54,761 nucleotides of DNA from an uncultured Oligoflexia bacterium (GCA_964649095.1 CAZYPH010000001.1:69407-124167), one strand, 5' to 3'. Shown: positions 945 to 54,761, counted from the stretch's first letter. Translations and numbers: made by a program. The notes: generated by a model from the letters alone, not told the origin.

Positions 945-1008
945 TGAGTAAAATCAGGTTAACCCTACTTTACTCATGAGTAAAATCGACTTAACCTGAT
1001 TTTACTCA
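945..1008. promoter_or_regulatory. Nested palindrome abutting the start codon of the 1008 gene
   Basis: Perfect 18-bp inverted repeat TGAGTAAAATCAGGTTAA (945-962) / TTAACCTGATTTTACTCA (991-1008). It flanks a perfect 16-bp palindrome TTTACTCATGAGTAAA (969-984). The 8-mer TGAGTAAA occurs four times in alternating orientation. The last base of the right arm is the A of ATG 1008. Confidence 0.6.
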
Positions 1009-2186
1009 TGCCTAAATCACACACCACTTCCAGCACCTCAAAACTAGAACCAACCGGACGATTTCTGAACCCCTACATTCAGGATGACCTCAGTCATCGC
1101 AAAATGGTTTTTATTGGTGGGCCCCGACAGGTTGGTAAAACAACGTTGGCGCTGTCCTACCTCGACAAACAAGAAACCCATCCCGCTTATTTAAATTGGG
1201 ATGTCCCAACCACCCGACAACAGCTTTTAAAGGGCGAAATACCAAGTTCGCAACCCTTACTCATCTTTGACGAAATCCATAAATATGCACGCTGGAGGAG
1301 CTTAATAAAGGGCTTCTACGATACGATGAAGTCCCATACGAAGTTCTTGGTCACAGGTTCTGCTCGTTTAGACTACTACCGAAAAGGGGGTGACTCTTTA
1401 GTGGGGCGGTACCACTATTACCGTTTGCACCCCTACTCTCTGCGCGAACTCAGTGCCGAGTGCCAACACAACGACCTGAAACACCTCTTAAAATTCGGGG
1501 GGTTTCCAGAGCCATTAATTCGTGGCGACGAGGTTTTTTTGCGACGTTGGAGCCGAGAGCGCCTACACCGCGTCGTGCAAGAAGATCTTACCAGCTTGCA
1601 TCAAGTAAAAGAACTATCGTTGATCGAACTTTTATTAAGCGCTCTACCTGAACGCGTAGGGTCACCGCTATCCGTAAAAAATCTCAGGGAACTACTTGAA
1701 GTGTCACACGAATCGGTAGAACGCTGGATATCAATATTAGAAAATTTATATATAGTCTTTAGAATATCTCCATACGGGGCACCCAAAATCAGAGCCGTAA
1801 AAAAAGAACAGAAACTGTATTTCTGGGATTGGTCTCAGATCACAGACGAAGGCGCTCGATTCGAAAATCTCGTAGCAAGCCAATTACTAAAGTACTGCCA
1901 CTTCGTCGAAGACACTACTGGACACGCCATGGAACTACGTTTTGTGCGCGACACCGACAAACGAGAAATCGACTTCGTGGTGCTCAAAGATAAAAAGCCA
2001 ATCTTTGCCGTGGAAAGCAAAACCGGTGAAAAACAGCCTAGCGCTGCCGCGCACTACTTTCGAGCTCGTACTCCGATAAGAACCTTCTACCAAGTCCATT
2101 TGGGCGAACGCGACTACGGGGACGCCGCGACAGGCGTACGCGTTTTGCCGTTTAGGTCTTTTTGCAAAGAATTGCAGATGCCATAA
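1008..2186 (+). CDS. AAA+ ATPase of the AAA_14/DUF4143 family (paralog P1)
   Basis: Walker A GGPRQVGKTT, Walker B LLIFDEIHK, sensor-like LVTGSARLD. C-terminal D...ExK string REIDFVVLKDKKPIFAVESK. Shares KEQKLYFWDWS with P4. Confidence 0.85.
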   Translation: MPKSHTTSSTSKLEPTGRFLNPYIQDDLSHRKMVFIGGPRQVGKTTLALSYLDKQETHPAYLNWDVPTTRQQLLKGEIPSSQPLLIFDEIHKYARWRSLIKGFYDTMKSHTKFLVTGSARLDYYRKGGDSLVGRYHYYRLHPYSLRELSAECQHNDLKHLLKFGGFPEPLIRGDEVFLRRWSRERLHRVVQEDLTSLHQVKELSLIELLLSALPERVGSPLSVKNLRELLEVSHESVERWISILENLYIVFRISPYGAPKIRAVKKEQKLYFWDWSQITDEGARFENLVASQLLKYCHFVEDTTGHAMELRFVRDTDKREIDFVVLKDKKPIFAVESKTGEKQPSAAAHYFRARTPIRTFYQVHLGERDYGDAATGVRVLPFRSFCKELQMP

Positions 2187-2304: not shown

Positions 2305-3501
2305 CTACCCAAAAAACGGCTGCATTCTATGATACCACTCGGCGAGCTCTCGAAACGAAACTACCTGAGTGCCCATCCAACGCCCTAAGGGCTCGCCGCC
2401 ATAAATGAGTACATTGCCGTGCGGACGTGCCTCGGGTTCAATTTTAGCAAAGTTGCTGAGCCCTTTTAGAAAGTCTTGATTCAATGTTGCGGACGATTTG
2501 ATCTCAATCGGTAGAAACATACCGCCCACTTCGATTACGACATCGACTTCATTACCAGAGTGGTCTCGATAAAACGCCATCTGCTCACGGAGGCCGCGAT
2601 TCCAGCGCGCTTTTATCAAGTCCATCACTACTAAATTTTCAAACAATAACCCACGCAAAGGGTGCGATGGCCACTGTTTTGCCGACTCTATCCCCAGCAA
2701 ACAACTCGCAACACCGACATCAAAAAAATAAAGCTTCGGTGATTTCACCAAACGTTTTGAAATATTTTTAAAATACGGACGCACGAGCATAATCACATAA
2801 GAGGCTTCAAGCGCTGACAACCAATGGCGCACGGTCGTAGCTGAAACACCCGCATCATTCGCAAGCTGATCAATGTTAAGCACCTGACCAATACGCCCCG
2901 CACACAAACGCATAAACCGCTGAAACGTACTAAGGTCTCGAATCTGTGTAATTTGTCGAAGGTCCTTTTCTATATAGGTTTCTATATATGCATTGTAGGC
3001 CTGCGTCGGATTTAAAGATTCGACCAACACACGAGGGTAAAACCCCTGATACAACATTTCATCGATTGAGGTGTTCGTTAGACTAGGCCGCCACTCTTCT
3101 AAACTCAGTGGTAGTAATTTTAGAATAGCCACGCGCCCTGCTAGCGACTGCGCCGTAGCGGCTTGCAGCTCGGGTTGATGACTACCCGTCAATATGAACT
3201 GACCTTTTTTTCTTGTTTCATCGACACGCACCTGAATCTCGGACAATAGTTTTGGCACGCGTTGCACTTCGTCGAAAATCGCGCCATCAGGGTATTGATT
3301 CAAAAAACCAACCGGATCGGCCTCAGCAAACTCACGTACATTCAAGGCTTCGAGATTGACGTACGGCTTATCGGTAAAAAGTGTTTTTGCGAGCGTTGTT
3401 TTGCCCGACTGCCGCGGTCCAGAAATTAATAATACGGGGTATTGCTGGGTGTATAATCTAGCTTGTTGAGCCGCAACTCTAGGAATGTCACTCTGAATCA
3501 T
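2305..3501 (-). CDS. AAA+ ATPase of the AAA_14/DUF4143 family (paralog P2)
   Basis: Walker A SGPRQSGKTT, Walker B AIFDEVQR, ILTGSHQPE. C-terminal NEVDVVIEVGGMFLPIEIK (D...ExK). Confidence 0.85.
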   Translation of the reverse strand: MIQSDIPRVAAQQARLYTQQYPVLLISGPRQSGKTTLAKTLFTDKPYVNLEALNVREFAEADPVGFLNQYPDGAIFDEVQRVPKLLSEIQVRVDETRKKGQFILTGSHQPELQAATAQSLAGRVAILKLLPLSLEEWRPSLTNTSIDEMLYQGFYPRVLVESLNPTQAYNAYIETYIEKDLRQITQIRDLSTFQRFMRLCAGRIGQVLNIDQLANDAGVSATTVRHWLSALEASYVIMLVRPYFKNISKRLVKSPKLYFFDVGVASCLLGIESAKQWPSHPLRGLLFENLVVMDLIKARWNRGLREQMAFYRDHSGNEVDVVIEVGGMFLPIEIKSSATLNQDFLKGLSNFAKIEPEARPHGNVLIYGGEPLGRWMGTQVVSFRELAEWYHRMQPFFG

Positions 3502-3980: not shown

Positions 3981-5201
3981 ATGCCACACATTCGAGAACG
4001 ACACCTTTTAGAGCCCTTCAAAAAACTAATTCGAAACGCCAGAATCGTTGGCATTCTTGGGCATCGACAGGTGGGTAAAACAACTTTGCTGCAGAGTGTA
4101 GCGAAGGAATACGTCACTCTAGACGACGAAGACACTTATATTGCGGCTAAAACATCGCCAAAAAAATTTATTGCAAGTCTTACTGCCAATCTATCTGGAA
4201 TTGATGAGTGCCAATTGGTGCCTGGTTTGTTTCCAGCAGTAAAAGTACGGGTTGGTACTAGCGCCATTCCGGGGCGCTTTATTTTAAGTGGCTCCGTACG
4301 TTTCACTAGCAGAAGAGCTATTCGAGAGTCTCTCACTGGACGCATTTCTAACATCGAACTCTATCCATTTGTATTGACGGAACTCAATGAAACGCCAAAC
4401 AGTTCTTTTCTTCTAAAGGCACTGCAAATAAAAAATATTGATCATCTGGCTAACGATGCCCAACAGGCTCAGTCACAGCATAATAATCGTAGCAAACTAT
4501 TGTTAAAGTATTTGAGTCAGGGCGGTCTTCCGGGCCTCTTTCATTTAAGAGACCTTGCTACCCAGCAGAATCTTTTACGCAATTTAATGGAAACCATTCT
4601 CGATCGTGATCTGCGTTTGGTTTACAATACAACACTGCCGTATCAACGCATTCTTGAATACTGTCAGATGTTAGCACAGGCCCCGCTTGAGATCGTGCGG
4701 CCCTCGACATTAAAAAAGAGCCTGCGCATTGCAGAGTCGACACAAAAAAATCTGCTGCACGCACTGGAATCGGTCTTTCTCATTCGCCGCATACCAGTTG
4801 AAGGCGACTTTAAAGGCGATCTGTTTTGGTTCGAGGATCAAATTGAACGCAACTACTTTGCCAGACAACCCGCTTGGGATGAAAGCGATTGGACCACACT
4901 CGTCTACCGCAATGCTCGTGCGCAGTTTAATTACCAAGTCGGTGAAGCGAGCCACTTTTTCTGCTATCGCACGCGCGGGGGCGCCAGCGTGCCCCTAGGT
5001 ATTCGAACTAGCAACGGCGCGTTGGGTATGATTCCTGTAAAGTCGCAATCGGACATCAATACGTCGCTCAAACGCTCGGCCGAAAGCTTTCTCAAACGCT
5101 ACAACCACTCTAAAGTTCTATTCCTCACTCGCGAAGGCAAAACATTCGACACCATCAACGACCGCATCGCTATTGTACCTGCGCAGGTGGCGTTGTTTTG
5201 A
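3981..5201 (+). CDS. AAA+ ATPase of the AAA_14/DUF4143 family (paralog P3) with a degenerate C-terminal nuclease-like motif
   Basis: Walker A LGHRQVGKTT, Walker B SGIDECQL, ILSGSVRFT. Where the paralogs have D...ExK, this protein has GASVPLGI...GMIPVKS (D to V, E to P). Confidence 0.8.
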   Translation: MPHIRERHLLEPFKKLIRNARIVGILGHRQVGKTTLLQSVAKEYVTLDDEDTYIAAKTSPKKFIASLTANLSGIDECQLVPGLFPAVKVRVGTSAIPGRFILSGSVRFTSRRAIRESLTGRISNIELYPFVLTELNETPNSSFLLKALQIKNIDHLANDAQQAQSQHNNRSKLLLKYLSQGGLPGLFHLRDLATQQNLLRNLMETILDRDLRLVYNTTLPYQRILEYCQMLAQAPLEIVRPSTLKKSLRIAESTQKNLLHALESVFLIRRIPVEGDFKGDLFWFEDQIERNYFARQPAWDESDWTTLVYRNARAQFNYQVGEASHFFCYRTRGGASVPLGIRTSNGALGMIPVKSQSDINTSLKRSAESFLKRYNHSKVLFLTREGKTFDTINDRIAIVPAQVALF

Positions 5202-5551
5202 GGGGGTTGGCTTTGGGGTGAGAAAAGCTCTCTTAGAGCGGCTGGTAATTTATAAATAGGAAAGATTTACCGTAACTTACTAACTGGCTAACTAACATTT
5301 TTGCTGGGAGGGGCAGATTGCCGCAGAGAACTTTGTTTATGGCGGTCGTGGTTATTAAGAAGGTGGTGATGATGTTCAGTTCTACTTGGAAGAATTCGTG
5401 AGTGTTAATTCGAAGGACTTCATAGGCAAGCTGCAACCCCTTAAAGAAATGGCCAGTCTAATATCAAAAAGCAATACTCATTAGCCAATCTACAGCTTGG
5501 GTAATACCTACCTAGTGAAGATCTTCGAGTCTTACGTCGAGAAGTATATCG

Positions 5552-7552
5552 ATGAATGCTACATCATCTCAACACCGAAAAAATCAGCGAGCTATTCTAA
5601 CTCTTTTGCGCGAATTCTTTATATTTGGGCACGATCTGACGCTGCTCATAGGAAAGGATAGTAAGGCTGTTCATATTGTCGAATTAGATGAGAGTAATCC
5701 CCGAGACCTCACACAATCTCGGGTAATAAAACTCACTTCAAAAAATAATAATTCCACGGACAGTAGAACCATTTCTATCAATGACGTTAGGCAGACGAAC
5801 AAAACCACATCGACTGCAATTCAATTAGAACTCAATAACCATTTTTTTTTAATTCCACTCAATGACTTTTTGAAAGTTAACTCAAATGAATACACTGCAA
5901 CATTTAGCCTGAATGATATTTTAAGCGCAAATCGACGACGACATAAGCGAGCTTCTGAGCCTGCATCATTCTATACGCCAATTTTATTTTACCACGGGGA
6001 TCTAAAAACGTATCCAATACCCGGCTTCGCGCGACTGATCGACTTTGACTCGCACGCCGTATGCGTAAATCTACAATTCTTTACGGTAGTAGAGGAATGT
6101 GAGCTGAAAAACGGCACTCTTCTATTCCAGGAACCATTGCTAGGCCTATATGATCGACAGCAAACGATCGCAAATATTCGCAATTTCTTAAACACTACCC
6201 AAGGGCAATCAACGATCACCAAGGTCGACGCAATTTTAAATGTCAAACGCCTGACCGTTCAGTCTTCAAATATTCCGTCGGTAATTCAACCAAATCGACC
6301 ACTCATGCTAGGGTTCATCTGTCTCTTGCACGAACAAAAAACAATTCATGCGCCCGTTGTCGAATTATTTCGCGATGGCTTTTACATTGATATTTCAGCT
6401 CAGGAGGCCCATTGCCTTCCTTCGCAATTTCAAGTGGATCACGACACCACTAAAATTCGATTTCACGCCATGAAGTTAAATGAACGATTATTTATTAGTT
6501 ATTCTGGCTTAACTTTGGGCAACAAAACAATTTGGTTCAATTTTCTAACTAAGGTGGCACTTGGATACGACCATTGTTTTACGGCAGGGGATTCAAAAAG
6601 AGTCACTCATCTTATGTTTGAGTCGGGCAATTATACATCGAGCGCCCTGCTGCAAATTGCCCTTCTCAACGACGCCTTTCAACACAAATGGCCGCTTGAA
6701 ACCGCCTTTTCACCAACGAAATATCGTTGGTTTGTGCGAAATCAAAATGGCGACTACATAGGTCACACCGCCGCAATACGCGTGTCTGAAAAGTTATGGG
6801 GCGCGATCGACAACATTGGCTCGCAGCAATTCGAAGGTAGCTGGAACGCGCAATTTGTGGCTCGTTTCCTAAGAGCTTTTGCAGAATTAATCGACCACCA
6901 AAATACTGATAGCTATGTGCAGTGGTCATTTGTGCCTTCCGCTGGAGTTTGGCAGAAATTTGATGAGGCCATAAAACGGAGGCCTGAGTTAACTTATACG
7001 CGAGATAGGTTTTGGGTGATGCAAATGCTCAATTATGCGCGCCCCAAAATGAAACCCAAACGTAAATACATCATTCGTCAAACCAACATTGAATCTTTAT
7101 ACACAAACCTAGACTTGATGGATGCGCTCTCCCAAAGCCAAAAGCAATTACTATCGCTTCTTGCTGTAGGTATCCAGCCTGACTCTTCATTTCAGAATGA
7201 TTTTTCTAAGGAGCATGGCTATCAGCTCACCCGATTCTATTATGTTATTGAATGTGCTGAAGTCGGTTCTTTTTTGTTAACGTTTACAAACTATCCGGCG
7301 TGGGCATCTCTACACAAGGGGCATGACTGGGACTATATTTTCCCTTTTTCAATAAGTATTGACCTAAGCGAGGACAGTGAAATTGAACTGCTAGCTGCAA
7401 TTGATGAGACTGTCTTTAAGGCTGGCTGTAGACTTCACGCCTTGGCTATCGTTCATCCAACCCTCCGACTAACACGCGGCGTCTCAATAATAAATTTGAC
7501 GTTACGACCAAGCGCCCTAGCGCTAGCAGCTGAAACAGTGGAGCAACTGTGA
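5552..7552 (+). CDS. 666-aa cytoplasmic protein: YcgR-like PilZN + PilZ-like N-terminal module and a ~430-aa C-terminal region of unknown function
   Basis: aa 14-47 AILTLLREFFIFGHDLTLLIGKDSKAVHIVELDE is PilZN-like. aa 128-133 RRRHKR fits the RxxxR motif. aa 162-170 LIDFDSHAV is a non-canonical version of the (D/N)xSxxG strand. The stop overlaps the next gene's start (GTGA). Confidence 0.65.
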   Translation: MNATSSQHRKNQRAILTLLREFFIFGHDLTLLIGKDSKAVHIVELDESNPRDLTQSRVIKLTSKNNNSTDSRTISINDVRQTNKTTSTAIQLELNNHFFLIPLNDFLKVNSNEYTATFSLNDILSANRRRHKRASEPASFYTPILFYHGDLKTYPIPGFARLIDFDSHAVCVNLQFFTVVEECELKNGTLLFQEPLLGLYDRQQTIANIRNFLNTTQGQSTITKVDAILNVKRLTVQSSNIPSVIQPNRPLMLGFICLLHEQKTIHAPVVELFRDGFYIDISAQEAHCLPSQFQVDHDTTKIRFHAMKLNERLFISYSGLTLGNKTIWFNFLTKVALGYDHCFTAGDSKRVTHLMFESGNYTSSALLQIALLNDAFQHKWPLETAFSPTKYRWFVRNQNGDYIGHTAAIRVSEKLWGAIDNIGSQQFEGSWNAQFVARFLRAFAELIDHQNTDSYVQWSFVPSAGVWQKFDEAIKRRPELTYTRDRFWVMQMLNYARPKMKPKRKYIIRQTNIESLYTNLDLMDALSQSQKQLLSLLAVGIQPDSSFQNDFSKEHGYQLTRFYYVIECAEVGSFLLTFTNYPAWASLHKGHDWDYIFPFSISIDLSEDSEIELLAAIDETVFKAGCRLHALAIVHPTLRLTRGVSIINLTLRPSALALAAETVEQL

Positions 7553-10293
7553 ACAACTGGCGATATTTTATTGCCGTCCTACTTAGCCTCGCTCTATCCT
7601 ATTCGACCAACGCAATTACATATATTTACAATCGAAAATTTACCCCTAACTTTGGCTTCTTAGGAACTATCAGCAACTACGAGGTAAGTTGCGATGAACT
7701 CCCCATTAAATTTAGAGAGAATTGTGCGAGCGCGTACTCAATACCACTCTTGCAAAATACAATTTTGACTTCAATAATGTCTCACACTACAGCCGAGGTT
7801 GGTATCGGTTTCATTTTAAGAGATACCCTATGGTTATGCTACAATGCCGAGCAACATCAACCAATATACGAAAGCTCCTCCTCAACGTTAGGGCCCATTC
7901 GGCATGACCTCTTACTGTACAACACTGCCACCGTTCCAATAAAGGATTGTAGCAATAGACTGTACATAAAACTTAAACACGACGATCGATTTTTCTTTAG
8001 CAGAATTTCTGGCACTTCAGGCCCCCTAACAATCGGCCACCCCGCGATTATTCGCTCCTACAAAAATGCGATCGATTTTTTTTCCTCCTATTTTCGTATT
8101 TTGTTAGCCGGTCTCTGTTTTTTACTCCTTCTCGTTTCTAACGACACACACCGTAAAAAAATACCTGGCTTAAGGCCCTATCGCTGGGCAATCTTCTTTG
8201 TAGCTGTTCACTTCTTTGCCTCAAGTTCGCTTATCGATGTAATCCTACCAACAACATTTTCTATAGGTTTTCTGCTCTTAATGGCTGGTGGGTCAGCTAG
8301 CTTTATTGCACTCATAATCAGCGCACTACAAGTATACTCATCCAAGGCAAGCTCACTTACTACCACCGAGCCTGTTGCAATCAGCACGATTCGGTCTTTT
8401 GTGAATAGTAAGTTTGTTCACTACTTGAATGGCCCGTCGATTCTACTGTTTCTCACCAGCTATTATGCAATTGCCACAGGCTCTCATTACTTACCGATTC
8501 AAACAGCACTAATGATTTCATCCGTCATTGTCGCGCTACTTACGCGTTCAGCAGGCCTGCTGATCTTTTCGGCGCTAGCTATTACGAATATTCTAGCTGC
8601 CTACAATGTGCTACCGGGCCACCCCACTAACTCTGCATCACATTTTCTATTGTTTTTATTCGTAATAGACACCTTTGAAAGCTTGAAAACTAAACAAAGA
8701 TTAATTTATATCGTCAATGAATCGAAGACACATCAAGCGCCCCACTTACTTCTGAGTTTTCTCGTTGAACGATTCAAGATCAAACGTATTTCTACATCGA
8801 TGTTTACCAATTCGTATGAGTTTATTACCCGAAGATTTACTGGTGGCAGCGAACAAACACTGACCGTAGAAAAACGAGTTTCTCGACTAGCTGCCCACGT
8901 TATGACCTCTCGCATTCCACTACTTCGAGTACAAGTTGCCTCAGAAGAATCAAAAATTTTAAAAGGACCCGATGCTAAGTTCTTTATCAAGCGCGGGCAT
9001 GAGTTCTGTATTTTTCCATTGATCTATTCCGAGAAAGCACTAGGAACGCTAAATATTAGTGGATACCCTCGATGGCTTCTCGCTGAACCTATGCAAATGA
9101 ACTTATTCTATAGTCTGATTATCCAGTTAACTGAACCACTTGCAGAATTAAAGTATCGGTCCGATCTTTCTCCAAATATTGATGAGCAACATAAAATTCA
9201 GACCCTCCAAGCTAAGTTTTTGGCTCAACCAAACAGATCCCACGAAAATCTCGTTGTCGCATTTGGTGACATCGCCAAAAGTATCGATGCAACGATAATC
9301 ATTTCCAAAGCCGAACCAGACAATGATCGATTTAGAACATTTTCGTCGCACAACTATACTCAAGATGCTGCAGACTTTCTTGAAACCCATACTCCATCGC
9401 TTAGTAATCGATTAGTAGCCAGTCCAGCCAATATCGCATTTCATCAGAAGAGCGCGGTCTTCATCGGCAATATTTTGAGTATGTTGAGCATCTACCAAGA
9501 GTTTCTTGTAGGCTTATTGAAGCAAAACGAGACCAAGAGCCTATTCGTAAGCCCAATACTAATTAAAGAATCCGACTCGCCATGGGGTTTAGTTTGGCTT
9601 GAATTTCACAATCGTTTTCACCGACCAGAAAGTGATTTGCGTGAGCTAGGTGAATTTGTCACAAAATCATTTACGACCATGCTGTGCGCTCACTTCGACT
9701 ATCGTGAGCAACAGCTTATTAACGAAGAGTTCTCAAGTGCAGTACCTGAATACGTCGTTGCGAAAATCAAACAAAATATTGATCCACGAGAAGTGGAAGA
9801 AGGTTATCTTTTAAACATCGATCTATCGGGCAGCACGAAATTAGCGAATGCAATTGGCAACAAAGATTTTACGAAAATTATTGAGAATCTCACACAAAGA
9901 CTTGAACATAGGCTTTCACTATTTGATTTTCGTCTCCAAATGATAGTTTGGGACTCCTTTGCATTTACTCGAAAACAGGACCGATTGAACTACTTAGATA
10001 CTGTAGTGATCGACGCAATCTTGCATGCCATTGCAGATGAGATAGAGCAACTAAACGCCACTGAGCTCCACGACTACCCTATAAGCTTTCGAGCGATCCT
10101 TAACCATGGGGATACTACGCGGGACTGGAGCAACGGCAACCTAAAACACTGGACTATAGTTGGTAGCGCCTACGCTGAAAGCTGCAAACTAGAGCAAATG
10201 CTAAAACCCGAAACCCAGGTAATTTTGATTGATAAATCCTGTCCTAACTTTTCTAGCACGACAAAGCGCCTATTGATTGATCGGGCCGCCTAA
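7549..10293 (+). CDS. 914-aa membrane receptor: signal peptide, extracytoplasmic domain, ~7 TM helices, two GAF-like domains, C-terminal divergent class III nucleotidyl cyclase-like domain
   Basis: GTG start with GGAG 5 nt upstream. N-terminus MNNWRYFIAVLLSLALSYSTNA. About 7 hydrophobic helices span aa ~176-376. GAF-like ends are CIFPLIYSEKALGTLNISGY and SLFVSPILIKESDSPWGLVWLEF. Cyclase-like motifs are LLNIDLSGST, IVWDSFAF, FRAILNHGD and VGSAYAESCKLE. Confidence 0.75.
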   Translation: MNNWRYFIAVLLSLALSYSTNAITYIYNRKFTPNFGFLGTISNYEVSCDELPIKFRENCASAYSIPLLQNTILTSIMSHTTAEVGIGFILRDTLWLCYNAEQHQPIYESSSSTLGPIRHDLLLYNTATVPIKDCSNRLYIKLKHDDRFFFSRISGTSGPLTIGHPAIIRSYKNAIDFFSSYFRILLAGLCFLLLLVSNDTHRKKIPGLRPYRWAIFFVAVHFFASSSLIDVILPTTFSIGFLLLMAGGSASFIALIISALQVYSSKASSLTTTEPVAISTIRSFVNSKFVHYLNGPSILLFLTSYYAIATGSHYLPIQTALMISSVIVALLTRSAGLLIFSALAITNILAAYNVLPGHPTNSASHFLLFLFVIDTFESLKTKQRLIYIVNESKTHQAPHLLLSFLVERFKIKRISTSMFTNSYEFITRRFTGGSEQTLTVEKRVSRLAAHVMTSRIPLLRVQVASEESKILKGPDAKFFIKRGHEFCIFPLIYSEKALGTLNISGYPRWLLAEPMQMNLFYSLIIQLTEPLAELKYRSDLSPNIDEQHKIQTLQAKFLAQPNRSHENLVVAFGDIAKSIDATIIISKAEPDNDRFRTFSSHNYTQDAADFLETHTPSLSNRLVASPANIAFHQKSAVFIGNILSMLSIYQEFLVGLLKQNETKSLFVSPILIKESDSPWGLVWLEFHNRFHRPESDLRELGEFVTKSFTTMLCAHFDYREQQLINEEFSSAVPEYVVAKIKQNIDPREVEEGYLLNIDLSGSTKLANAIGNKDFTKIIENLTQRLEHRLSLFDFRLQMIVWDSFAFTRKQDRLNYLDTVVIDAILHAIADEIEQLNATELHDYPISFRAILNHGDTTRDWSNGNLKHWTIVGSAYAESCKLEQMLKPETQVILIDKSCPNFSSTTKRLLIDRAA

Positions 10294-11322
10294 AGACTCG
10301 CTAGTTCGCTTCAGCAGGATGTTTGACCAGGTCATACCAGCCCCAAATACCGATACCAACACGATAGCATTAGGCTTAATTTTAGATTGATTTTGACTAA
10401 GAACGGTTACCCAACCGGATGAACTCGTATTCCCGAAACGATCAACATTATATAAATGTTTTTGCTGCGGTAAACCAACTCTATCGATCAATTCCGCCAT
10501 CATCACTAGGTTTGATTGATGCAATACGACGTGATCAACTTGAGCTAAAGTGAGATTATTTTTCCTTAGGATAAGCTCTATCTTTGAAGGCATCTGCGTC
10601 AACACGAACTCCACTACCGCACGACCGTCTTGCTGGAACTTTGGCTCAGAACGCTTCCGTCTATTTACTCTAGGCTTACCTGGTTGTAATTCACCCGTTG
10701 CCATTTCATTGATAGTTAAGTGCGACGTATCGGATGTTCGCAATTCTTGTACAATATCTAAACCTTGCCCACCAATATCCACATCAATCAATTGAAACGC
10801 GCCACTTTCCTTCGAAACGAACAACATGCTCGCGGCATCACCAAACAATATACAAGAACGCCGATCACCATAATCGACGTATCGAGTAAATGCCTCAGCA
10901 TTGAGAACCAAAACATCGTTATAAAAAGTGGTGGACAAAACACTTCTCGCTAGAAAGACAGCATATGCAACGGATGTACAAGCACTTTTCAATTGGAAGA
11001 CTGGTGCCACTAAACCTTCATCTTTTGCAATTAAATTACCTGGATTGGGATAGTGTAAATCATCGTGACTCGCAGCCGATATAATTAAATCAATTTTGGG
11101 CCAATCGTTAACTAATGCTTCGGACTTCCACTTTGCTATGAGCCGCCGCAGTAATTCATATCCTGGTAGGTCACCTTGATAGTCGGTCATACTGCGACGC
11201 TCGATTATCCCAGTTTTCGACAGCACCCACGCAGGGTCCGCATCACAGATACCTTTCAAAAAATGGTTATCAACTATGTGGTCGGGATGATAGTGAGCTA
11301 GGTTCTTCAGATAAATAGACAT
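10270..11322 (-). CDS. 3-oxoacyl-ACP synthase III (FabH/KAS III)-like condensing enzyme, stand-alone
   Basis: Cys-His-Asn triad contexts: QLKSACTSVAYA, VVLHQSN, RFGNTSSSG. Length 350 aa. Overlaps the 3' end of the 7549 gene by 24 nt (convergent). Confidence 0.85.
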   Translation of the reverse strand: MSIYLKNLAHYHPDHIVDNHFLKGICDADPAWVLSKTGIIERRSMTDYQGDLPGYELLRRLIAKWKSEALVNDWPKIDLIISAASHDDLHYPNPGNLIAKDEGLVAPVFQLKSACTSVAYAVFLARSVLSTTFYNDVLVLNAEAFTRYVDYGDRRSCILFGDAASMLFVSKESGAFQLIDVDIGGQGLDIVQELRTSDTSHLTINEMATGELQPGKPRVNRRKRSEPKFQQDGRAVVEFVLTQMPSKIELILRKNNLTLAQVDHVVLHQSNLVMMAELIDRVGLPQQKHLYNVDRFGNTSSSGWVTVLSQNQSKIKPNAIVLVSVFGAGMTWSNILLKRTSESLGGPINQ

Positions 11323-11420
11323 ATATATATATTATCTTATAAATTACCGTGATCAAACAACGGTGATCTGAGTACAAGAAATGAGAACTTCAACTTTGCT
11401 AAACGAACAGACCTAATAGC

Positions 11421-11924
11421 TCACTTCCCCCCACCACCCCTCCCCCCAAAAAACTCCTTAACCCGCTCTTTGGCGAGTTTGGGGTCGAATTTGTATAGGT
11501 AGGGGTCGAAGCCGCAGTGCGGACAGATCAGGCTTTGGCGGGCGCGGGCGCGGTAAAAGAATTCAAATAGCACCCAAATGGGTAGCGATACAAACACACC
11601 CTTCACCCCAAAAAGCGGGTACAAAACAACAAGACAAAAAATAGTAAATACAGATAGTTGTATATAGTGTTTTAACTGTGGCTTGGGCCAATAAAACGAC
11701 CGACGTTCAGCCGAACACAACGGGCAATAGAACGTCCAGAACGGCCTCTTTTGCAAAATAAACGGCAACTCAGAACCCAAAACTCTCTGTGCTTGGCCAT
11801 CCGCCCGTCCGACCAATCCACCAGACCCAGCAGTCACGGCGCTCGGCTTTACACCAGCACTCTCACCAGCGCCTGCGCCATCCTTTTTTACCCCACCACC
11901 GTCTTTTGATTCGCCATCCTGCAT
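11421..11924 (-). CDS. Small membrane protein with two CxxC pairs flanking a TM hairpin; Gly-rich termini
   Basis: CPLCSAERR...(two hydrophobic helices)...CPHCGFDP. No family recognised. The start is uncertain. Confidence 0.45.
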   Translation of the reverse strand: MQDGESKDGGGVKKDGAGAGESAGVKPSAVTAGSGGLVGRADGQAQRVLGSELPFILQKRPFWTFYCPLCSAERRSFYWPKPQLKHYIQLSVFTIFCLVVLYPLFGVKGVFVSLPIWVLFEFFYRARARQSLICPHCGFDPYLYKFDPKLAKERVKEFFGGRGGGGK

Positions 11925-12112
11925 ACTCCTCTATTCTATTACCTTCTCAAACGAAGTCAAAAGTGCGGCCGGTAGGCAAAATATGTGGTATAGCTTGGCG
12001 GACCAGAAAAACAAGGAACACCTCAATCAGCCCACACCGCATCGCGCCATCCAATATAGAACTACTGTGGCCGGTACGGCAGTGGCTTAAACTTTCAGAA
12101 AACACGATATTT

Positions 12113-13582
12113 ATGACAGGCAAGATGTTCTCTACCCCTTACCCCGAATTTTACCGCGCCGTAAGCCATCAGATTCGAGATGATCTTTTGGTTCCGGGAA
12201 AAATCTCACGTTCGATCCTAAAAGAAGTCCTTCAACTGAGCCGCGTATTTACCGAGAATCGAGAGCCGACCTCAAACGATGCATCGTCGCGTTATTTTTT
12301 GGAACAGAAAAACATTCGCGCCTACTGCACCTACTATTTGCCTCTCAATTTTAACAAGCTGCGCAACATACTAAAAGGCGCTGGGTTTCCAAACAAAACG
12401 GCGTTTCAGGCGTTGTTACAACAAGACTCTATTTCGATAGTTGATTTTGTTTCTGGCCCAGCCACTGCGACGTTAGCGCTGCTCGATCTTTTATTATCGC
12501 CTCAAACACAGTCGAATATAAAAACGATATCGATTCACTTGGTAGAGGAAGTCGCCGAGGTTGCCTCGGCCGGCAAAAACATTCTCAACGCCTACCTTAA
12601 TGAAAAAGCACCTGCACTCGAATGGAACATCACCACACAACCCACAGCCGCTTTTTATGCGACGCCTGTGGCGCATGATATTTTCTTAGCAGCCAACGTC
12701 TTCAACGAACTACCGGCCGGCACAGAAGCGTTCGAAGCCGCTTGTTTGCTAGCTCGACACGGCACCCTAATTGTAGAGCCCAGCCACCGAGTACCCACAC
12801 AACGCCTTATTCGACTGCGCGATCGTCTCTTAAAAACAGCGCCCAGCACCCATATATTGGCGCCGTGCACGCACAATAAAAAATGCCCCATGCATCGAAC
12901 CGATAATTGGTGTCATTTTGCAGATGAAAACACCGATGAAATTTTAGAGGCCCTGAGCATGATGATTTTTCGTGATGCGCGGCGTTTTTTAAAATATTCA
13001 TTTCTATTTTTTCAATCAAACCCGCCAGCAGCGAACACCACAACAAACTCAATAGAAAATATTGATACACCTCAACACCATGCCCGCGCCGTAGGCGACC
13101 TCATCCATTCTCGCCGTGGTGGTTTTGCGATCGATGTTTGCGGCGTCTTTGACGACCAACCACAGAAGTTAGAACTCCACATCACCGATGATCTGCCACA
13201 AAGCCTTATCAATAAAATTCGTCGAGGTAGCACACTCCTACTTAGTGAAACACCGAAGGCGACTAACAAACAAAGTGGCCCAAAATCAGTATTCAATGCC
13301 GCGCCGGCATCGCCCTATAAAGTACGCAGCGCCGAGCCTTTTTTAAAACACCAGCCCCGAGGCCCTAAAACTGATAGCGACAAAAATAAAACCCCTCGGA
13401 GCGCCATGGGGCGTCCAGAGGCGATACGTCCTCGATCACAGGATCTGAAGCCGGCACGCCCCGGTCCGGAACGTCCTCGTCGGTCGTTGAACGATCGCCC
13501 TGGCGCGTCGTTAAGTTCTCGTTCACCGATACGTCGAGCAACTCCATTGCCTCGTGTGACACCAAAGAAACCATCGCGATAG
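12113..13582 (+). CDS. Rsm22-like SAM-dependent methyltransferase with a basic/Pro-rich C-terminal tail
   Basis: SAM-binding-like VDFVSGPATATLALLDL, ANVFNELP, and the Cys cluster APCTHNKKCPMHRTDNWCHF. I use the ATG at 12113 (MTGKMF). The ORF-track start at 11789 would overlap the opposite-strand gene and reads as low-complexity sequence. Confidence 0.7.
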   Translation: MTGKMFSTPYPEFYRAVSHQIRDDLLVPGKISRSILKEVLQLSRVFTENREPTSNDASSRYFLEQKNIRAYCTYYLPLNFNKLRNILKGAGFPNKTAFQALLQQDSISIVDFVSGPATATLALLDLLLSPQTQSNIKTISIHLVEEVAEVASAGKNILNAYLNEKAPALEWNITTQPTAAFYATPVAHDIFLAANVFNELPAGTEAFEAACLLARHGTLIVEPSHRVPTQRLIRLRDRLLKTAPSTHILAPCTHNKKCPMHRTDNWCHFADENTDEILEALSMMIFRDARRFLKYSFLFFQSNPPAANTTTNSIENIDTPQHHARAVGDLIHSRRGGFAIDVCGVFDDQPQKLELHITDDLPQSLINKIRRGSTLLLSETPKATNKQSGPKSVFNAAPASPYKVRSAEPFLKHQPRGPKTDSDKNKTPRSAMGRPEAIRPRSQDLKPARPGPERPRRSLNDRPGASLSSRSPIRRATPLPRVTPKKPSR

Positions 13583-54706: not shown

Positions 54707-54761
54707 TGGCGTCCCCACGGGGATTCGAACCCCGGTTACCGCCGTGAAAGGGCGATGTCCT
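54707..54761 (-). tRNA. tRNA-Glu (anticodon UUC), 3' 55 nt; the 5' part lies beyond the window
   Basis: The reverse complement AGGACATCGCCCTTTCACGGCGGTAACCGGGGTTCGAATCCCCGTGGGGACGCCA contains the anticodon loop CTTTCAC, the T-arm CGGGG-TTCGAAT-CCCCG, acceptor strand and CCA. It is near-identical in layout to the E. coli tRNA-Glu as I remember it. Confidence 0.85.

What the first reader, a model, noticed from the sequence alone, without database searches (positions are those of the whole stretch)
5552..11322. AT-richer three-gene island: PilZ-like protein coupled to a 7TM-GAF-GAF-cyclase-like receptor, with a convergent orphan KAS III. Best candidate for an uncharacterised signalling system.
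Seen in the sequence:
- (i) ORFs 5552-7552 and 7549-10293 share a GTGA overlap, with GGAG 5 nt upstream of the GTG. This implies translational coupling and probably fixed stoichiometry.
- (ii) The KAS III-like gene converges on the receptor gene and overlaps its 3' end by 24 nt.
- (iii) The block looks visibly more AT-rich than the flanking rRNA methyltransferase and ssb DNA, and it directly follows three AAA_14/DUF4143 genes.

Inference: a sensor with an extracytoplasmic domain and a cyclase-like output is paired with a large protein whose only recognisable part is a nucleotide-second-messenger receptor fold (PilZ). PilZ normally reads c-di-GMP made by GGDEF enzymes, not the products of class III cyclases, so this pairing is not a textbook producer/receptor pair. 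The adjacent KAS III could supply an acyl or polyketide-type small molecule. I cannot tell whether this is signalling, envelope remodelling or a conflict/defence module.
Basis: partly seen in the sequence, partly recalled or inferred. Interest (0 to 1): 0.75.

Follow-up and report, generated by a model that had tools for sequence, protein, structure and literature searches.

The report
Coupled PilZ protein and cyclase-like receptor
Two overlapping genes encode a membrane receptor with an unusual cyclase-like output and a partner carrying a second-messenger-binding (PilZ) fold, usually beside a fatty-acid-type condensing enzyme; this is a conserved but unstudied bacterial signalling module, seen in Bdellovibrionales-type genomes where a source organism is named.

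Summary
The three ORFs, the GTGA overlap with GGAG 5 nt upstream, the 24-nt convergent overlap and the AT-richer composition (42.1% vs 46.6% GC, the lowest 6.2-kb stretch of the window) are all present.

The domain calls could not be reproduced with Pfam, NCBIfam or PADLOC on the window proteins. Deeper methods support them.
- **Gene A (666 aa):** its N-terminal half folds like YcgR/MrkH-type PilZN-PilZ c-di-GMP receptors and keeps RRxxxR. Its C-terminal ~340 aa match nothing known.
- **Gene B (914 aa):** it belongs to a family of about 115 clusters. The architecture is signal peptide, four-Cys periplasmic domain, 7TM, GAF, GAF and a class III cyclase-homology domain.
- **Cyclase-like active site:** both metal aspartates are kept, but the catalytic Asn is Ala and the Arg is Lys across the family.

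A and B are adjacent in all 10 other contexts examined, with an NTGA overlap in 9, down to 19% identity. The one histidine-kinase-output variant lacks A. KAS III, with an intact Cys-His-Asn triad, accompanies the closer clade in three different gene orders.

My best reading is an uncharacterised receptor/effector second-messenger module. No chemistry has been shown. I rate it a new variant of a known kind.

The parts
5202..5551 (+). 350-nt intergenic region upstream of gene A. It presumably holds the promoter and leader, but nothing is defined.
   Evidence: No ORF of 80 aa or more. No + strand sigma-70-like site passes the scan here. No Rfam family at gathering score.
5552..7552 (+). Gene A, 666 aa, cytosolic. 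Order of parts: N-terminal helix, PilZN-like barrel, PilZ-like barrel, third beta-barrel, novel C-terminal domain.
   Evidence: ORF. No TM segment. Homologues lie directly upstream of B in L001, L004, L006, L007, L008, L009, L010 and L013.
5627..6241 (+). PilZN-like (aa 26-118) plus PilZ-like (aa 124-230) beta-barrels
   Evidence: AF2 model with pLDDT about 65-80. Foldseek top hits are MrkH, PlzA, PP4397, YcgR, MotI, VCA0042 and Alg44 PilZ. No Pfam or PDB-sequence hit.
5933..5950 (+). RRxxxR motif (R128 R129 x3 R133), the PilZ phosphate/guanine-binding loop
   Evidence: Kept in all five window-clade A sequences that cover the site. R129 and R133 are also kept in the distant L009 copy. It sits in a low-pLDDT loop just before a barrel strand.
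6041..6058 (+). Position of PilZ motif II. The window has D164-F-D166-S-H-A169 where canonical PilZ has (D/N)xSxxG.
   Evidence: Alignments. The distant homologues L009 (DKSPDG) and L013 (DVSKNG) carry the canonical form.
6299..6499 (+). Third beta-barrel (aa 250-316)
   Evidence: AF2 secondary structure, pLDDT about 65-72. The segment is conserved as far as L009.
6539..7549 (+). Novel C-terminal domain (aa 330-666). Conserved motifs: LMxESGNY, TKYRWLVRD, GHTAGxRVSExLWAAIDNIGSQ, VQWTFxPxAGVW, NYPxWASLNKTHDW.
   Evidence: It is the most conserved part of A. No Pfam hit for any of 7 homologues at E<=10. A profile search against PDB sequences found nothing. It is not cyclase-like. The AF2 model here has pLDDT below 50.
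7540..7552 (+). Translational-coupling junction: GGAG, 5-nt spacer, then a GTG start overlapping the TGA stop
   Evidence: An NTGA overlap is present at the A/B junction of L001, L004, L006, L007, L008, L009 and L010. Gene coordinates show the same in L013 and the JGI contig.
7549..10293 (+). Gene B, 914 aa, a membrane receptor
   Evidence: ORF. An exhaustive HMMER search found 115 representatives at E<=1e-3, most of them 880-990 aa and aligned end to end.
7549..8043 (+). Signal peptide (aa 1-22) and periplasmic beta-rich domain (aa 23-165) with four conserved Cys (48, 59, 97, 134)
   Evidence: Hydrophobic N-terminus ending STNA. The Cys are kept in 66-69 of 78 family members, and most of the rest are truncated. 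Beta strands appear in the low-confidence model. No DISMED or other Pfam hit.
8041..8721 (+). Seven transmembrane helices (aa about 165-391)
   Evidence: Hydropathy peaks and AF2 helices at 165-196, 209-232, 235-264, 295-309, 312-330, 335-351 and 362-391. The first cytoplasmic loop (aa 197-214) has 5 Lys/Arg. No 7TMR-DISM_7TM Pfam hit.
8734..9126 (+). GAF-A (aa 396-526)
   Evidence: Pfam GAF hits in homologues P0015 (E=4e-8) and P0118 map to this segment. The window protein itself gets no direct hit.
9232..9684 (+). GAF-B (aa 562-712)
   Evidence: Pfam GAF/GAF_2 hits in P0018, P0020, P0022, P0031, P0041 and P0055 map here. In total 31 of 55 members hit GAF.
9811..10245 (+). Non-canonical class III cyclase-homology domain (aa 755-899). 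Family-wide motifs: DLxGST, WDAF, RxCxxxGD(I/T)(S/T)R, WTIxGxAMAxxxKLExxxK.
   Evidence: Family profile against PDB sequences: RhoGC 6aoa E=2.3e-7, 5oyh, CyaB 3r5g 2e-5, Ma1120, sGC. Foldseek: Rv1900c CHD E=1.5e-4 with 21% identity, CyaC, mammalian AC, sGC, PycC. Residue statistics over 77 members.
10270..11322 (-). KAS III (FabH-like) condensing enzyme, 350 aa, convergent with B
   Evidence: Pfam ACP_syn_III (5e-16) and ACP_syn_III_C (8e-21). It scores 186.9 against the best NCBIfam KAS III model (NF006829), whose cut-off is 249, and is below the cut-off of every NCBIfam model hit. The Cys115-His268-Asn298 triad is kept in all 6 cluster-linked copies. The best solved relatives are FabH enzymes (E about 4e-32) and PqsD (1e-24).

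Best explanation
Genes A and B encode a fixed-ratio, membrane-associated second-messenger module, and KAS III is an accessory of the window's clade.

Shown:
- B is a receptor built as signal peptide, four-Cys periplasmic domain, seven TM helices, two GAF domains and a C-terminal domain homologous to class III nucleotidyl cyclases.
- A is a cytosolic protein whose N-terminal half has the PilZN-PilZ fold of YcgR/MrkH-type c-di-GMP receptors and keeps RRxxxR. Its C-terminal ~340 aa form a conserved domain of unknown fold.
- The two genes are translationally coupled in nearly every genome that has them.

Inferred:
- B senses a periplasmic or membrane cue, possibly integrated with a small ligand on its GAF domains.
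- B switches its cyclase-like domain, which binds an NTP-metal substrate through the invariant Asp758/Asp802/Arg848/Lys886 set. It makes a nucleotide product using non-canonical catalytic residues (Ala876 and Lys880 in place of Asn and Arg, plus the family-specific Gly854-Asp855).
- A, held next to B, reads that local nucleotide signal through its PilZ module and passes it to its C-terminal effector domain.
- In the window's clade, the active KAS III makes a beta-ketoacyl-derived small molecule that is either the cue sensed by B or the substrate or product of the output step.

The nucleotide's identity, the effector's activity and the KAS III product are all unknown.
For: - A/B adjacency holds in all 10 other contexts examined. 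An NTGA overlap is present in 9 of them, with B identity down to 19%. L005 has a 4-nt gap instead.
- A homology is confirmed in L001, L004, L006, L007, L010, L009 and L013.
- The one family member with a histidine-kinase output instead of the cyclase-like domain (P0015) has no A-like neighbour.
- PilZN-PilZ fold and the RRxxxR motif.
- Cyclase-homology domain.
- Nine residues are conserved in 77 of 77 members, including both metal Asp, Arg848, Lys880, Glu882 and Lys886. This argues for a working site rather than a decayed one.
- GAF domains.
- Periplasmic Cys and 7TM topology.
- KAS III is kept next to A-B in three gene orders: convergent downstream (window, L001, L006, JGI contig), co-directional upstream (L007) and co-directional downstream (L008, L010). 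Its catalytic triad is intact, and its sequence identity between loci rises and falls with that of A and B.
Against: - No Pfam, NCBIfam, PADLOC or PDB-sequence hit for A or B themselves.
- The PilZ call rests on a medium-confidence model built from a 3-sequence alignment, plus a short motif.
- PilZ motif II is DxDxxA, not DxSxxG, in the window's clade. c-di-GMP binding may therefore be altered or lost.
- The cyclase-like domain lacks the transition-state Asn and Arg and the usual base-specifying pair. Ordinary cAMP or cGMP synthesis is doubtful.
- No class III cyclase product is known to bind PilZ.
- The link between A and the cyclase-type output rests on a single histidine-kinase-output counter-example.
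- KAS III is absent from the distant clade (L009, L013, L005).
- Nothing was measured.
Confidence: 0.4

Rival explanations
1. Cross-talk rather than a private producer/receptor pair. A reads the global c-di-GMP pool made by ordinary GGDEF enzymes. As a docked adaptor it gates the cyclase-like output of B, or B's conformational state gates A's effector domain. Any product of B acts on other receptors.
For: - The distant-clade A proteins (L009, L013) carry the canonical PilZ pair RxxxR plus DxSxxG, typical of c-di-GMP binders.
- A stand-alone GGDEF gene and a PP2C protein with a cNMP-binding domain lie in the conserved neighbourhood of L007 and L013.
- cAMP/c-di-GMP convergence is documented in Bdellovibrio for the cAMP-sensing EAL enzyme Bd1971 (PMC6717892, found).
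- Translational coupling fits a stable complex equally well.
Against: - Motif II is not canonical in the window's clade.
- It does not explain why the cyclase-like site is so unusual yet invariant.
- The evidence here cannot separate this from the best explanation.
Confidence: 0.3
2. A lipid or envelope-remodelling module. The nucleotide-type domains are structural relics: a pseudo-cyclase and a ligand-less PilZ fold. B acts as a sensor/scaffold that controls an enzymatic C-terminal domain of A working together with KAS III on acyl chains.
For: - The catalytic Asn and Arg of cyclases are missing.
- Motif II of PilZ is altered precisely in the six A sequences of the KAS III-linked clade, five of them seen next to a KAS III gene, and canonical in the two KAS-less ones.
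- KAS III is the most conserved of the three proteins.
- The window lies near lipid A genes (LpxB, LpxK, a lipid A acyltransferase).
Against: - Both metal Asp, Arg848 and Lys886 are kept in 77 of 77 members, and RRxxxR is kept. Relics would drift.
- The A-B pair exists without KAS III in the distant clade, with A's C-terminal domain still conserved.
- No acyltransferase, thioesterase or other enzyme signature was detected in A.
Confidence: 0.15
3. An anti-phage or conflict module of the Pycsar/CBASS type: a cyclase makes a signal on infection and A is the killing effector. It would have been acquired horizontally as an AT-rich island beside candidate defence ATPases.
For: - The module is lower in GC than its flanks in all six long loci, by 1.1 to 7.9 points.
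- An IS remnant lies next to it in L001.
- The upstream AAA_14/DUF4143 genes hit PADLOC PDC-S01.
- The PycC cUMP synthase is among the fold matches.
Against: - No PADLOC hit for A, B or KAS III.
- No relative in viral contigs or plasmids.
- B has a signal peptide, a periplasmic domain, 7TM and two GAF domains. That is the build of an environmental receptor, not a cytosolic infection sensor.
- The locus is syntenic between relatives (window/L006, L007/L013).
- AAA_14 paralogues are scattered through the window, with five copies.
Confidence: 0.05

Closest known systems
YcgR / MrkH / PlzA / PP4397-type PilZN-PilZ c-di-GMP receptors
   Same: Two consecutive beta-barrels. RRxxxR sits in the loop before the second barrel. 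These are the best fold matches. Both are cytosolic proteins that act through protein contacts.
   Different: - A is three times longer, with a third barrel and a conserved ~340-aa domain of unknown fold.
- Motif II is DxDxxA in the window's clade.
- No PilZ profile hit.
- A is encoded overlapping a cyclase-like receptor gene, not a flagellar, fimbrial or polysaccharide gene.
GAF-regulated class III adenylyl/guanylyl cyclases (for example cyanobacterial CyaB1/CyaB2; solved relatives Rv1900c, CyaC, RhoGC, P. aeruginosa CyaB)
   Same: Tandem GAF domains upstream of a cyclase-homology domain with the beta-alpha-alpha-beta-beta-alpha-beta fold. Both metal-binding Asp and the phosphate-binding Arg/Lys are present.
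   Different: - The transition-state Asn is Ala (69 of 77) and the Arg is Lys (77 of 77).
- The base-specifying positions are Met798/Thr869 and vary across the family.
- Family-specific invariant Trp801, Gly854-Asp855 and Trp868.
- Below Pfam's threshold in all 55 members scanned.
- Fused to a signal peptide, a Cys-rich periplasmic domain and 7TM.
7TMR-DISM receptors (7TM receptors with diverse intracellular signalling modules)
   Same: An N-terminal extracytoplasmic domain, seven TM helices and interchangeable cytoplasmic outputs. One member of the family, P0015, has a histidine-kinase output.
   Different: No hit to 7TMR-DISM_7TM or DISMED profiles. This is an analogy of architecture only. 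I compared against my own knowledge of the family, not a solved example.
KAS III-type signal and secondary-metabolite synthases (PqsD of PQS synthesis, PpyS photopyrone synthase, DarB dialkylresorcinol synthase) and housekeeping FabH
   Same: Thiolase-fold condensing enzyme with the Cys-His-Asn triad. FabH and PqsD are among the solved relatives. The gene sits in a signalling context rather than a fab operon.
   Different: - Below the cut-off of every NCBIfam model it hits, including the best KAS III model (186.9 against 249) and DarB.
- It carries a family-specific insertion (about aa 195-230).
- Its product is unknown.
- The roles of PpyS and DarB in signalling are from my own knowledge, not tested here.
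Bd1971, the cAMP-sensing c-di-GMP phosphodiesterase of Bdellovibrio (PMC6717892)
   Same: A precedent, in the Bdellovibrio group where one family member was found, for wiring cyclic mononucleotide and c-di-GMP signalling into one unit.
   Different: Bd1971 is a single soluble protein (cNMP-binding domain plus EAL). It has no PilZ, no cyclase-like domain and no membrane receptor.
Pycsar (PycC cyclase plus effector) defence systems
   Same: A class III-type cyclase fold encoded next to a protein that would read its product.
   Different: No PADLOC hit. B is a large periplasm-sensing receptor. A has neither a cNMP-binding domain nor a TIR or TM effector.

Membership tests
PilZ domain (PF07238) | Match to the family profile | tested here: not met
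   No Pfam hit at E<=10 for the window protein or any of 9 A homologues. A profile of the region against PDB sequences finds no PilZ protein.
PilZ domain (PF07238) | Beta-barrel fold superposable on solved PilZ domains | tested here: met
   Foldseek hits: MrkH E=5e-6, PlzA, PP4397, YcgR, MotI, VCA0042 and Alg44 PilZ (TM about 0.5 on the single domain), at prob 0.97-1.0 for most and 0.63-0.85 for MotI and VCA0042. The model region has pLDDT of only 65-80, from a 3-sequence alignment.
PilZ domain (PF07238) | RRxxxR motif before the barrel | tested here: met
   R128-R129-x3-R133 is kept in all five window-clade sequences that cover the site. RxxxR is kept in L009, L010 and L013.
PilZ domain (PF07238) | (D/N)xSxxG motif about 20-30 residues downstream | tested here: not met
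   The window has D164-F-D166-S-H-A169, and all six clade sequences lack the Ser and Gly. The canonical form is present in the distant homologues L009 and L013.
PilZ domain (PF07238) | Binds c-di-GMP | not testable with these tools
   Needs a binding assay.
Class III nucleotidyl cyclase (Guanylate_cyc, PF00211) | Match to the family profile at Pfam's threshold | tested here: not met
   No hit for the window protein. Of 55 family members, one hits, below threshold (P0020, 17.9 bits against a cut-off of 21.9).
Class III nucleotidyl cyclase (Guanylate_cyc, PF00211) | Homology to solved cyclase homology domains (sequence profile and fold) | tested here: met
   A profile of 25 members hits RhoGC at 2.3e-7, 5oyh at 6e-7 and CyaB at 2e-5. 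Foldseek hits Rv1900c CHD at 1.5e-4, and the top 50 are almost all cyclases. The model region has pLDDT of only 55-72.
Class III nucleotidyl cyclase (Guanylate_cyc, PF00211) | Two metal-binding aspartates | tested here: met
   D758 and D802 align with the cyclase Asp pair and are kept in 77 of 77 members.
Class III nucleotidyl cyclase (Guanylate_cyc, PF00211) | Transition-state Asn and Arg (the GxxxNxxxR motif) | tested here: not met
   Asn is replaced by Ala876 (69 of 77; Asn in 1). Arg is replaced by Lys880 (77 of 77).
Class III nucleotidyl cyclase (Guanylate_cyc, PF00211) | Base-specifying pair (Lys/Asp for ATP, Glu/Cys for GTP) | tested here: not met
   The aligned positions are Met798 (variable across the family) and Thr869 (Thr/Ser/Ala/Gly).
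Class III nucleotidyl cyclase (Guanylate_cyc, PF00211) | Makes a 3',5'-cyclic nucleotide | not testable with these tools
   Needs an enzyme assay.
GAF domain (PF01590/PF13185) | Match to the family profile | tested here: inconclusive
   The window protein has no hit. Among full-length homologues, 31 of 55 hit GAF (best 7.5e-12) and 24 hit GAF_2. The hits map to B 396-526 and 562-712. Membership is by transitive homology.
7TMR-DISM receptors | Match to the 7TMR-DISM_7TM and DISMED1/2 profiles | tested here: not met
   No Pfam hit. Only the general plan is shared: an extracytoplasmic domain, 7TM and variable outputs.
KAS III / FabH | ACP_syn_III and ACP_syn_III_C domains | tested here: met
   5.3e-16 and 8.1e-21, both above the cut-offs.
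KAS III / FabH | Cys-His-Asn catalytic triad | tested here: met
   C115, H268 and N298 are kept in all six cluster-linked copies.
KAS III / FabH | Housekeeping FabH orthology (NCBIfam cut-offs) | tested here: not met
   The best score, 186.9 bits against NF006829, is below that model's cut-off of 249. TIGR00747 scores 146.3 against 292.1.
Known anti-phage systems (PADLOC-DB, including Pycsar and CBASS) | Match to any defence-protein model | tested here: not met
   No hit for A, B or KAS III at E<=1.

The most novel reading that the evidence does not exclude
The non-canonical cyclase-homology domain of B (metal Asp pair kept, Asn to Ala, Arg to Lys, extra invariant Gly-Asp) may make a nucleotide messenger that a PilZ fold can read. 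That could be c-di-GMP, another dinucleotide or a linear nucleotide made on a class III cyclase scaffold. A would be its dedicated, stoichiometric receptor, driving a new ~340-aa effector domain. In the window's clade the altered PilZ motif II and the recruited KAS III would mark a switch of ligand or cue. This would be a new synthase class for a PilZ ligand and a self-contained three-part signal-synthase/receptor/effector circuit.
Probability: 0.2. Interest if true: 0.85.

Novelty: new variant of a known kind. Interest (0 to 1): 0.62.

Why it matters
PilZ proteins are the classic readers of c-di-GMP, which is made by GGDEF enzymes. Class III cyclases make cAMP or cGMP, which other folds read.

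This module breaks that pattern in three ways:
- A PilZ-fold protein is translationally coupled to a class III-type domain across a family of about 115 sequence clusters.
- The domain's active site is both strongly conserved and non-canonical.
- The pairing appears to be lost in the one variant whose output is a histidine kinase.

Each possible outcome would be new for bacterial second-messenger biology. The domain may make a PilZ ligand by a new route. The pair may be a hard-wired junction between two messenger systems. Or both folds may have been reused for something else.

The module also contains a ~340-aa domain with no detectable relatives and a dedicated KAS III whose product may be a signal. 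Both are directly testable with recombinant proteins.

The family appears to be concentrated in Bdellovibrionales-type predatory bacteria, where receptor signalling is poorly understood. That taxonomic reading rests on one NCBI name.

Tried and rejected
Led nowhere or gave negatives:
- Direct Pfam, NCBIfam and PADLOC scans, and a PDB-sequence search, of A and B gave no hits even at E<=10.
- The word-indexed homologue search found only 1-2 relatives each. The family became visible only with the exhaustive HMMER search.
- The genome-collection scan found only the pond MAG already in hand. Two metagenome scans and one viral scan found nothing. tblastn against plasmids found nothing.
- AlphaFold models were weak because only 2-3 sequences were allowed in the alignment. 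A had mean pLDDT 49, with the C-terminal half unusable. B had mean pLDDT 38, with only aa 750-855 usable.
- Three-sequence profiles of GAF-A and GAF-B against PDB gave nothing.
- A profile of A's PilZ region against PDB gave nothing.
- For A's C-terminal domain, a profile against PDB and Pfam scans of 7 homologues gave nothing.
- There is no excess of promoter-like or terminator-like sites in 5100-11600, and no Rfam element.
- Literature searches for a PilZ/cyclase-homology pair or a PilZ/KAS III cluster found nothing relevant.

Hypotheses rejected:
- A's C-terminal domain as a 'C2-like' cyclase half that would supply the missing Asn and Arg: hhalign prob 1.2%.
- The 396-aa ORF in the KAS slot of L013 as a diverged KAS III: prob 0.2%.
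- The recurrent downstream histidine kinases as a conserved fourth component: they share only the kinase core, and the window has none.
- The AAA_14/DUF4143 genes as part of the module: five scattered paralogues occur in the window.
- The 24-nt convergent overlap as a conserved regulatory feature: it is specific to the window copy.

Full report
**1. Observation**

The three ORFs exist as described: A at 5552-7552 (+, 666 aa), B at 7549-10293 (+, 914 aa, GTG start) and a KAS III gene at 10270-11322 (-, 350 aa).

- The A/B junction reads GGAG-caact-GTGA. The start of B overlaps the stop of A by 4 nt, with a Shine-Dalgarno-like GGAG 5 nt upstream.
- KAS III and B overlap tail-to-tail by 24 nt.
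- The block 5202-11420 is 42.1% GC against 46.6% for the rest of the window. It is the lowest of all 6.2-kb sliding windows, and no non-overlapping window falls below 43.9%.
- Third codon positions are also lower, at 40-41% against 44-53% in the flanking genes.
- Upstream are three AAA_14/DUF4143 genes and ssb. Downstream are Rsm22/RsmB-type methyltransferase genes.

**2. Direct annotation fails**

Pfam gives no hit for A or B at any E-value up to 10. PADLOC gives nothing at E<=1. NCBIfam gives nothing for B and only a noise-level match for A (E=0.11). Phmmer against all PDB sequences gives only noise-level matches (E 0.24 and 0.5). Only the third gene is recognisable.

- It has ACP_syn_III plus ACP_syn_III_C domains.
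- It is FabH-like but scores below the cut-off of every NCBIfam model it hits. The best KAS III model gives 186.9 bits against a cut-off of 249.
- Its Cys115-His268-Asn298 triad is intact.

The deeper tests below reverse that.

**3. Gene B**

The word-indexed search found only one relative. An exhaustive HMMER search of 1.84 billion cluster representatives found 115 with E<=1e-3 and 90 with E<=1e-10. Most are 880-990 aa and aligned end to end.

- **GAF domains.** Of 55 members scanned, 31 hit Pfam GAF (best 7.5e-12) and 24 hit GAF_2. One hits Guanylate_cyc below threshold. Mapped through the family alignment, the GAF hits fall on B 396-526 and 562-712, and the cyclase hit on B 755-899.
- **Cyclase-homology domain, by sequence.** A 25-sequence profile of the C-terminal domain matches solved class III cyclases: RhoGC guanylyl cyclase at 2.3e-7, 5oyh at 6e-7, P. 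aeruginosa CyaB at 2e-5, then Ma1120, soluble guanylyl cyclase and mycobacterial cyclases.
- **Cyclase-homology domain, by fold.** The AlphaFold model of B is poor overall (mean pLDDT 38). Residues 750-855 reach 55-72 with the beta-alpha-alpha-beta-beta-alpha-beta order. Foldseek's top 50 are almost all cyclase homology domains, led by Rv1900c at E=1.5e-4 with 21% identity.
- **Membrane part.** B starts with a signal peptide (aa 1-22), followed by a beta-rich domain with four Cys kept in 66-69 of 78 members. Seven hydrophobic helices lie between aa 165 and 391, and the first cytoplasmic loop (aa 197-214) carries 5 Lys/Arg.

**4. The cyclase-like site is unusual and fixed**

I aligned the domain to RhoGC and Rv1900c and counted residues over 77 members.

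| Position in B | Role in canonical class III cyclases | State in the family |
|---|---|---|
| Asp758, Asp802 | metal-binding pair | 77 of 77 |
| Arg848, Gly854, Lys880, Glu882, Lys886 | conserved positions; Lys880 replaces the Arg | 77 of 77 |
| Ala876 | transition-state Asn | Ala in 69 of 77, Asn in 1 |
| Met798, Thr869 | base-specifying pair | variable; not Lys/Asp or Glu/Cys |
| Trp801, Asp855, Trp868 | none; family-specific | 73-75 of 77 |

A site conserved to this degree at about 17% overall identity is under selection. It is not the canonical cAMP/cGMP-forming site. The chemistry is unknown.

**5. Gene A**

The AlphaFold model, built from a 3-sequence alignment, is usable only for aa 1-330 (pLDDT about 65-80). 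It shows an N-terminal helix followed by three beta-barrels.

- Foldseek's best matches are the two-barrel PilZN-PilZ c-di-GMP receptors: MrkH (5e-6, prob 1.0), PlzA, PP4397, YcgR, MotI and VCA0042. Single PilZ domains such as Alg44 also match.
- The loop before the second barrel carries N127-R128-R129-x3-R133, the PilZ RRxxxR motif. It is kept in all five window-clade sequences that cover the site.
- The second PilZ motif, (D/N)xSxxG, is D164-x-D166-x-x-A169 in the window, and similarly altered in all six sequences of its clade.
- The distant homologues have the canonical form: DKSPDG in L009 and DVSKNG in L013.
- No PilZ profile hit was obtained for any homologue.

'PilZ-like' therefore rests on fold plus motif.

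Residues 330-666 are the best-conserved part of A (motifs LMxESGNY, TKYRWLVRD, GHTAGxRVSExLWAAIDNIGSQ, NYPxWASLNKTHDW). They match nothing in Pfam or PDB and are not cyclase-like. The model there is unusable.

**6. Gene neighbourhoods**

I examined ten further contexts of cyclase-type B genes.

| Locus | Gene upstream of B | A/B junction | KAS III |
|---|---|---|---|
| L001 (pond MAG) | A, 36% identical | TTGA overlap, same GGAGCAACT box | convergent downstream |
| JGI 4.6-kb contig | partial ORF, similarity not tested | 4-nt overlap | convergent downstream |
| L004 | A-like C-terminus, E=2e-34 | ATGA overlap | not seen (SBP_bac_5 gene downstream; contig ends upstream) |
| L006 | A | ATGA overlap | convergent downstream |
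| L007 | A | ATGA overlap | co-directional upstream |
| L008 | A | ATGA overlap | co-directional downstream |
| L010/L011 | A | ATGA overlap | co-directional downstream |
| L009 | A', prob 95%, E=2.4e-8 | GTGA overlap | none |
| L013 (Bdellovibrionales MAG) | A', prob 99.3% | 4-nt overlap | none |
| L005 | weakly A-like, prob 50% | 4-nt gap | none |

- Junction sequences are shown.
- L006's flanks (AAA_14 upstream, RsmB and Peptidase_S49 downstream) are syntenic with the window.
- The one family member with a HisKA/HATPase output instead of the cyclase-like domain (P0015) has no A-like gene upstream.
- KAS III is adjacent in all seven window-clade contexts where both sides could be seen, in three different gene orders.
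- KAS III identity between loci tracks that of A and B. For L001-L006 the values are 40/40/63% for A/B/KAS. For window-L010 they are 25/27/36%.
- The catalytic triad of KAS III is kept in all six copies examined.

I conclude that A-B is the ancient core, tied to the cyclase-like output. KAS III is a stable accessory of one clade.

**7. Composition and mobility**

The module is lower in GC than its flanks in all six long loci, by 1.1 to 7.9 points. In L001 the drop from 50.7% to 40.0% starts exactly at gene A, and a frame-shifted ISL3-like transposase remnant follows KAS III.

Three findings argue against a mobile island:
- The locus is syntenic between relatives (window/L006 and L007/L013).
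- No relative was found in viral contigs or plasmids.
- No defence model matches.

I read this as old horizontal spread or intrinsic bias, not a mobile defence island.

**8. Mechanism**

Shown:
- a receptor with a periplasmic Cys-rich domain, 7TM, two GAF domains and a non-canonical cyclase-homology domain;
- a translationally coupled cytosolic partner with a PilZN-PilZ fold and a novel domain;
- co-inheritance with an active KAS III in one clade.

Inferred (best explanation, confidence 0.4): B converts an extracytoplasmic or membrane cue, possibly with a GAF ligand, into a nucleotide product of its cyclase-like domain. A, made in fixed ratio and probably docked to B, reads the product through PilZ and drives its C-terminal effector. 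KAS III supplies the cue or takes part in the output.

Rivals:
- Cross-talk, in which A reads global c-di-GMP and gates B (0.3).
- A lipid or envelope module in which both nucleotide folds are relics (0.15).
- A defence module (0.05).

The evidence here does not separate the first two. The loss of canonical PilZ motif II exactly in the KAS-linked clade is unexplained.

**9. Comparison and novelty**

The parts belong to known kinds: the PilZ fold, GAF, class III cyclase-homology domains and KAS III. Membership tests fail for several defining features:
- no PilZ or Guanylate_cyc profile hit;
- no DxSxxG motif;
- no catalytic Asn and Arg;
- no base-specifying pair;
- the KAS III gene falls below FabH cut-offs.

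NCBI names one member only 'GAF domain-containing protein [Bdellovibrionales bacterium]'. Four literature searches found no description of a PilZ/cyclase-homology pair or of a PilZ/KAS III cluster. The nearest precedent for cNMP/c-di-GMP convergence in this group is the cAMP-sensing EAL enzyme Bd1971 (PMC6717892).

I rate the finding a new variant of a known kind, interest 0.62. There is a 0.2 chance of the more novel reading, that a class III-fold enzyme makes the ligand of its own PilZ partner.

Noticed in passing
window 1008-2186(+), 2305-3501(-), 3981-5201(+), 15026-16213(+), 45965-47113(-): Five AAA_14/DUF4143 ATPase paralogues are scattered through the window. The first three hit the PADLOC candidate system PDC-S01 (up to E=1.6e-100). 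One AAA_14 gene also sits directly upstream of gene A in the syntenic locus L006.
   Followed up: partly
window 37083-39527 (-): A GC-rich outlier (about 57.7% against 46%). It is an 814-aa ORF with no Pfam hit. It has an N-terminal hydrophobic segment, a coiled-coil-like region and a very long Gly/Pro/Met/Phe-rich repeat (GFPGAGFPGMMPGGFNAGFNGG...).
   Followed up: partly
window 41512-42762 (-): A HipA-type toxin kinase gene (HipA_C plus Couple_hipA). I did not look for a partner antitoxin.
   Followed up: no
window 11421-11924 (-) and 11789-13582 (+): A 167-aa ORF with weak CxxC zinc-ribbon-like matches lies between KAS III and the Rsm22-like methyltransferase. It overlaps the longest possible start of the latter, so one of the two start calls is probably wrong.
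   Followed up: no
window 54710-54761 (-): A partial tRNA is cut by the end of the window (Rfam, 33.7 bits). ARAGORN finds no complete tRNA in the window.
   Followed up: no
L001 15694-17546: A 1.85-kb stretch with no called gene lies right after KAS III in the pond MAG. It holds a frame-shifted remnant of what looks like an ISL3-type transposase (my reading of the translated frames; no search was run on it). The GC content drops from 50.7% to 40.0% exactly at the start of gene A.
   Followed up: partly
L001 17547-18764, L005 3413-5266, L007 10691-12466, L008 4517-5854, L010 5880-7616 and 7655-9433, L013 10844-12589: A membrane histidine kinase lies convergent just downstream of B or KAS III in six of the ten other contexts. 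These kinases share only the kinase core, apart from the syntenic pair L007/L013 and the L010 paralogues. There is none in the window or in L006.
   Followed up: partly
L007 4974-5999 versus L013 4938-6128: Two loci have identical flanks; L013 is a Bdellovibrionales MAG and L007 is an unnamed metagenome contig. The slot before gene A holds KAS III in L007 and an unrelated 396-aa ORF with no Pfam hit in L013. The A/B pairs at the same site belong to different clades of the family.
   Followed up: partly
A-family alignments (window aa 164-169; L009, L013): PilZ motif II is non-canonical (DxDxxA-like) in all six A proteins of the KAS III-linked clade, five of which were seen next to a KAS III gene. 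It is canonical DxSxxG in the two A proteins without KAS III. This co-variation is unexplained.
   Followed up: partly
P0015 / L012 1060-3858: One family member keeps the periplasmic domain, 7TM and GAF region but ends in HisKA/HATPase_c instead of the cyclase-like domain. The sensor module is therefore reused with different outputs.
   Followed up: partly
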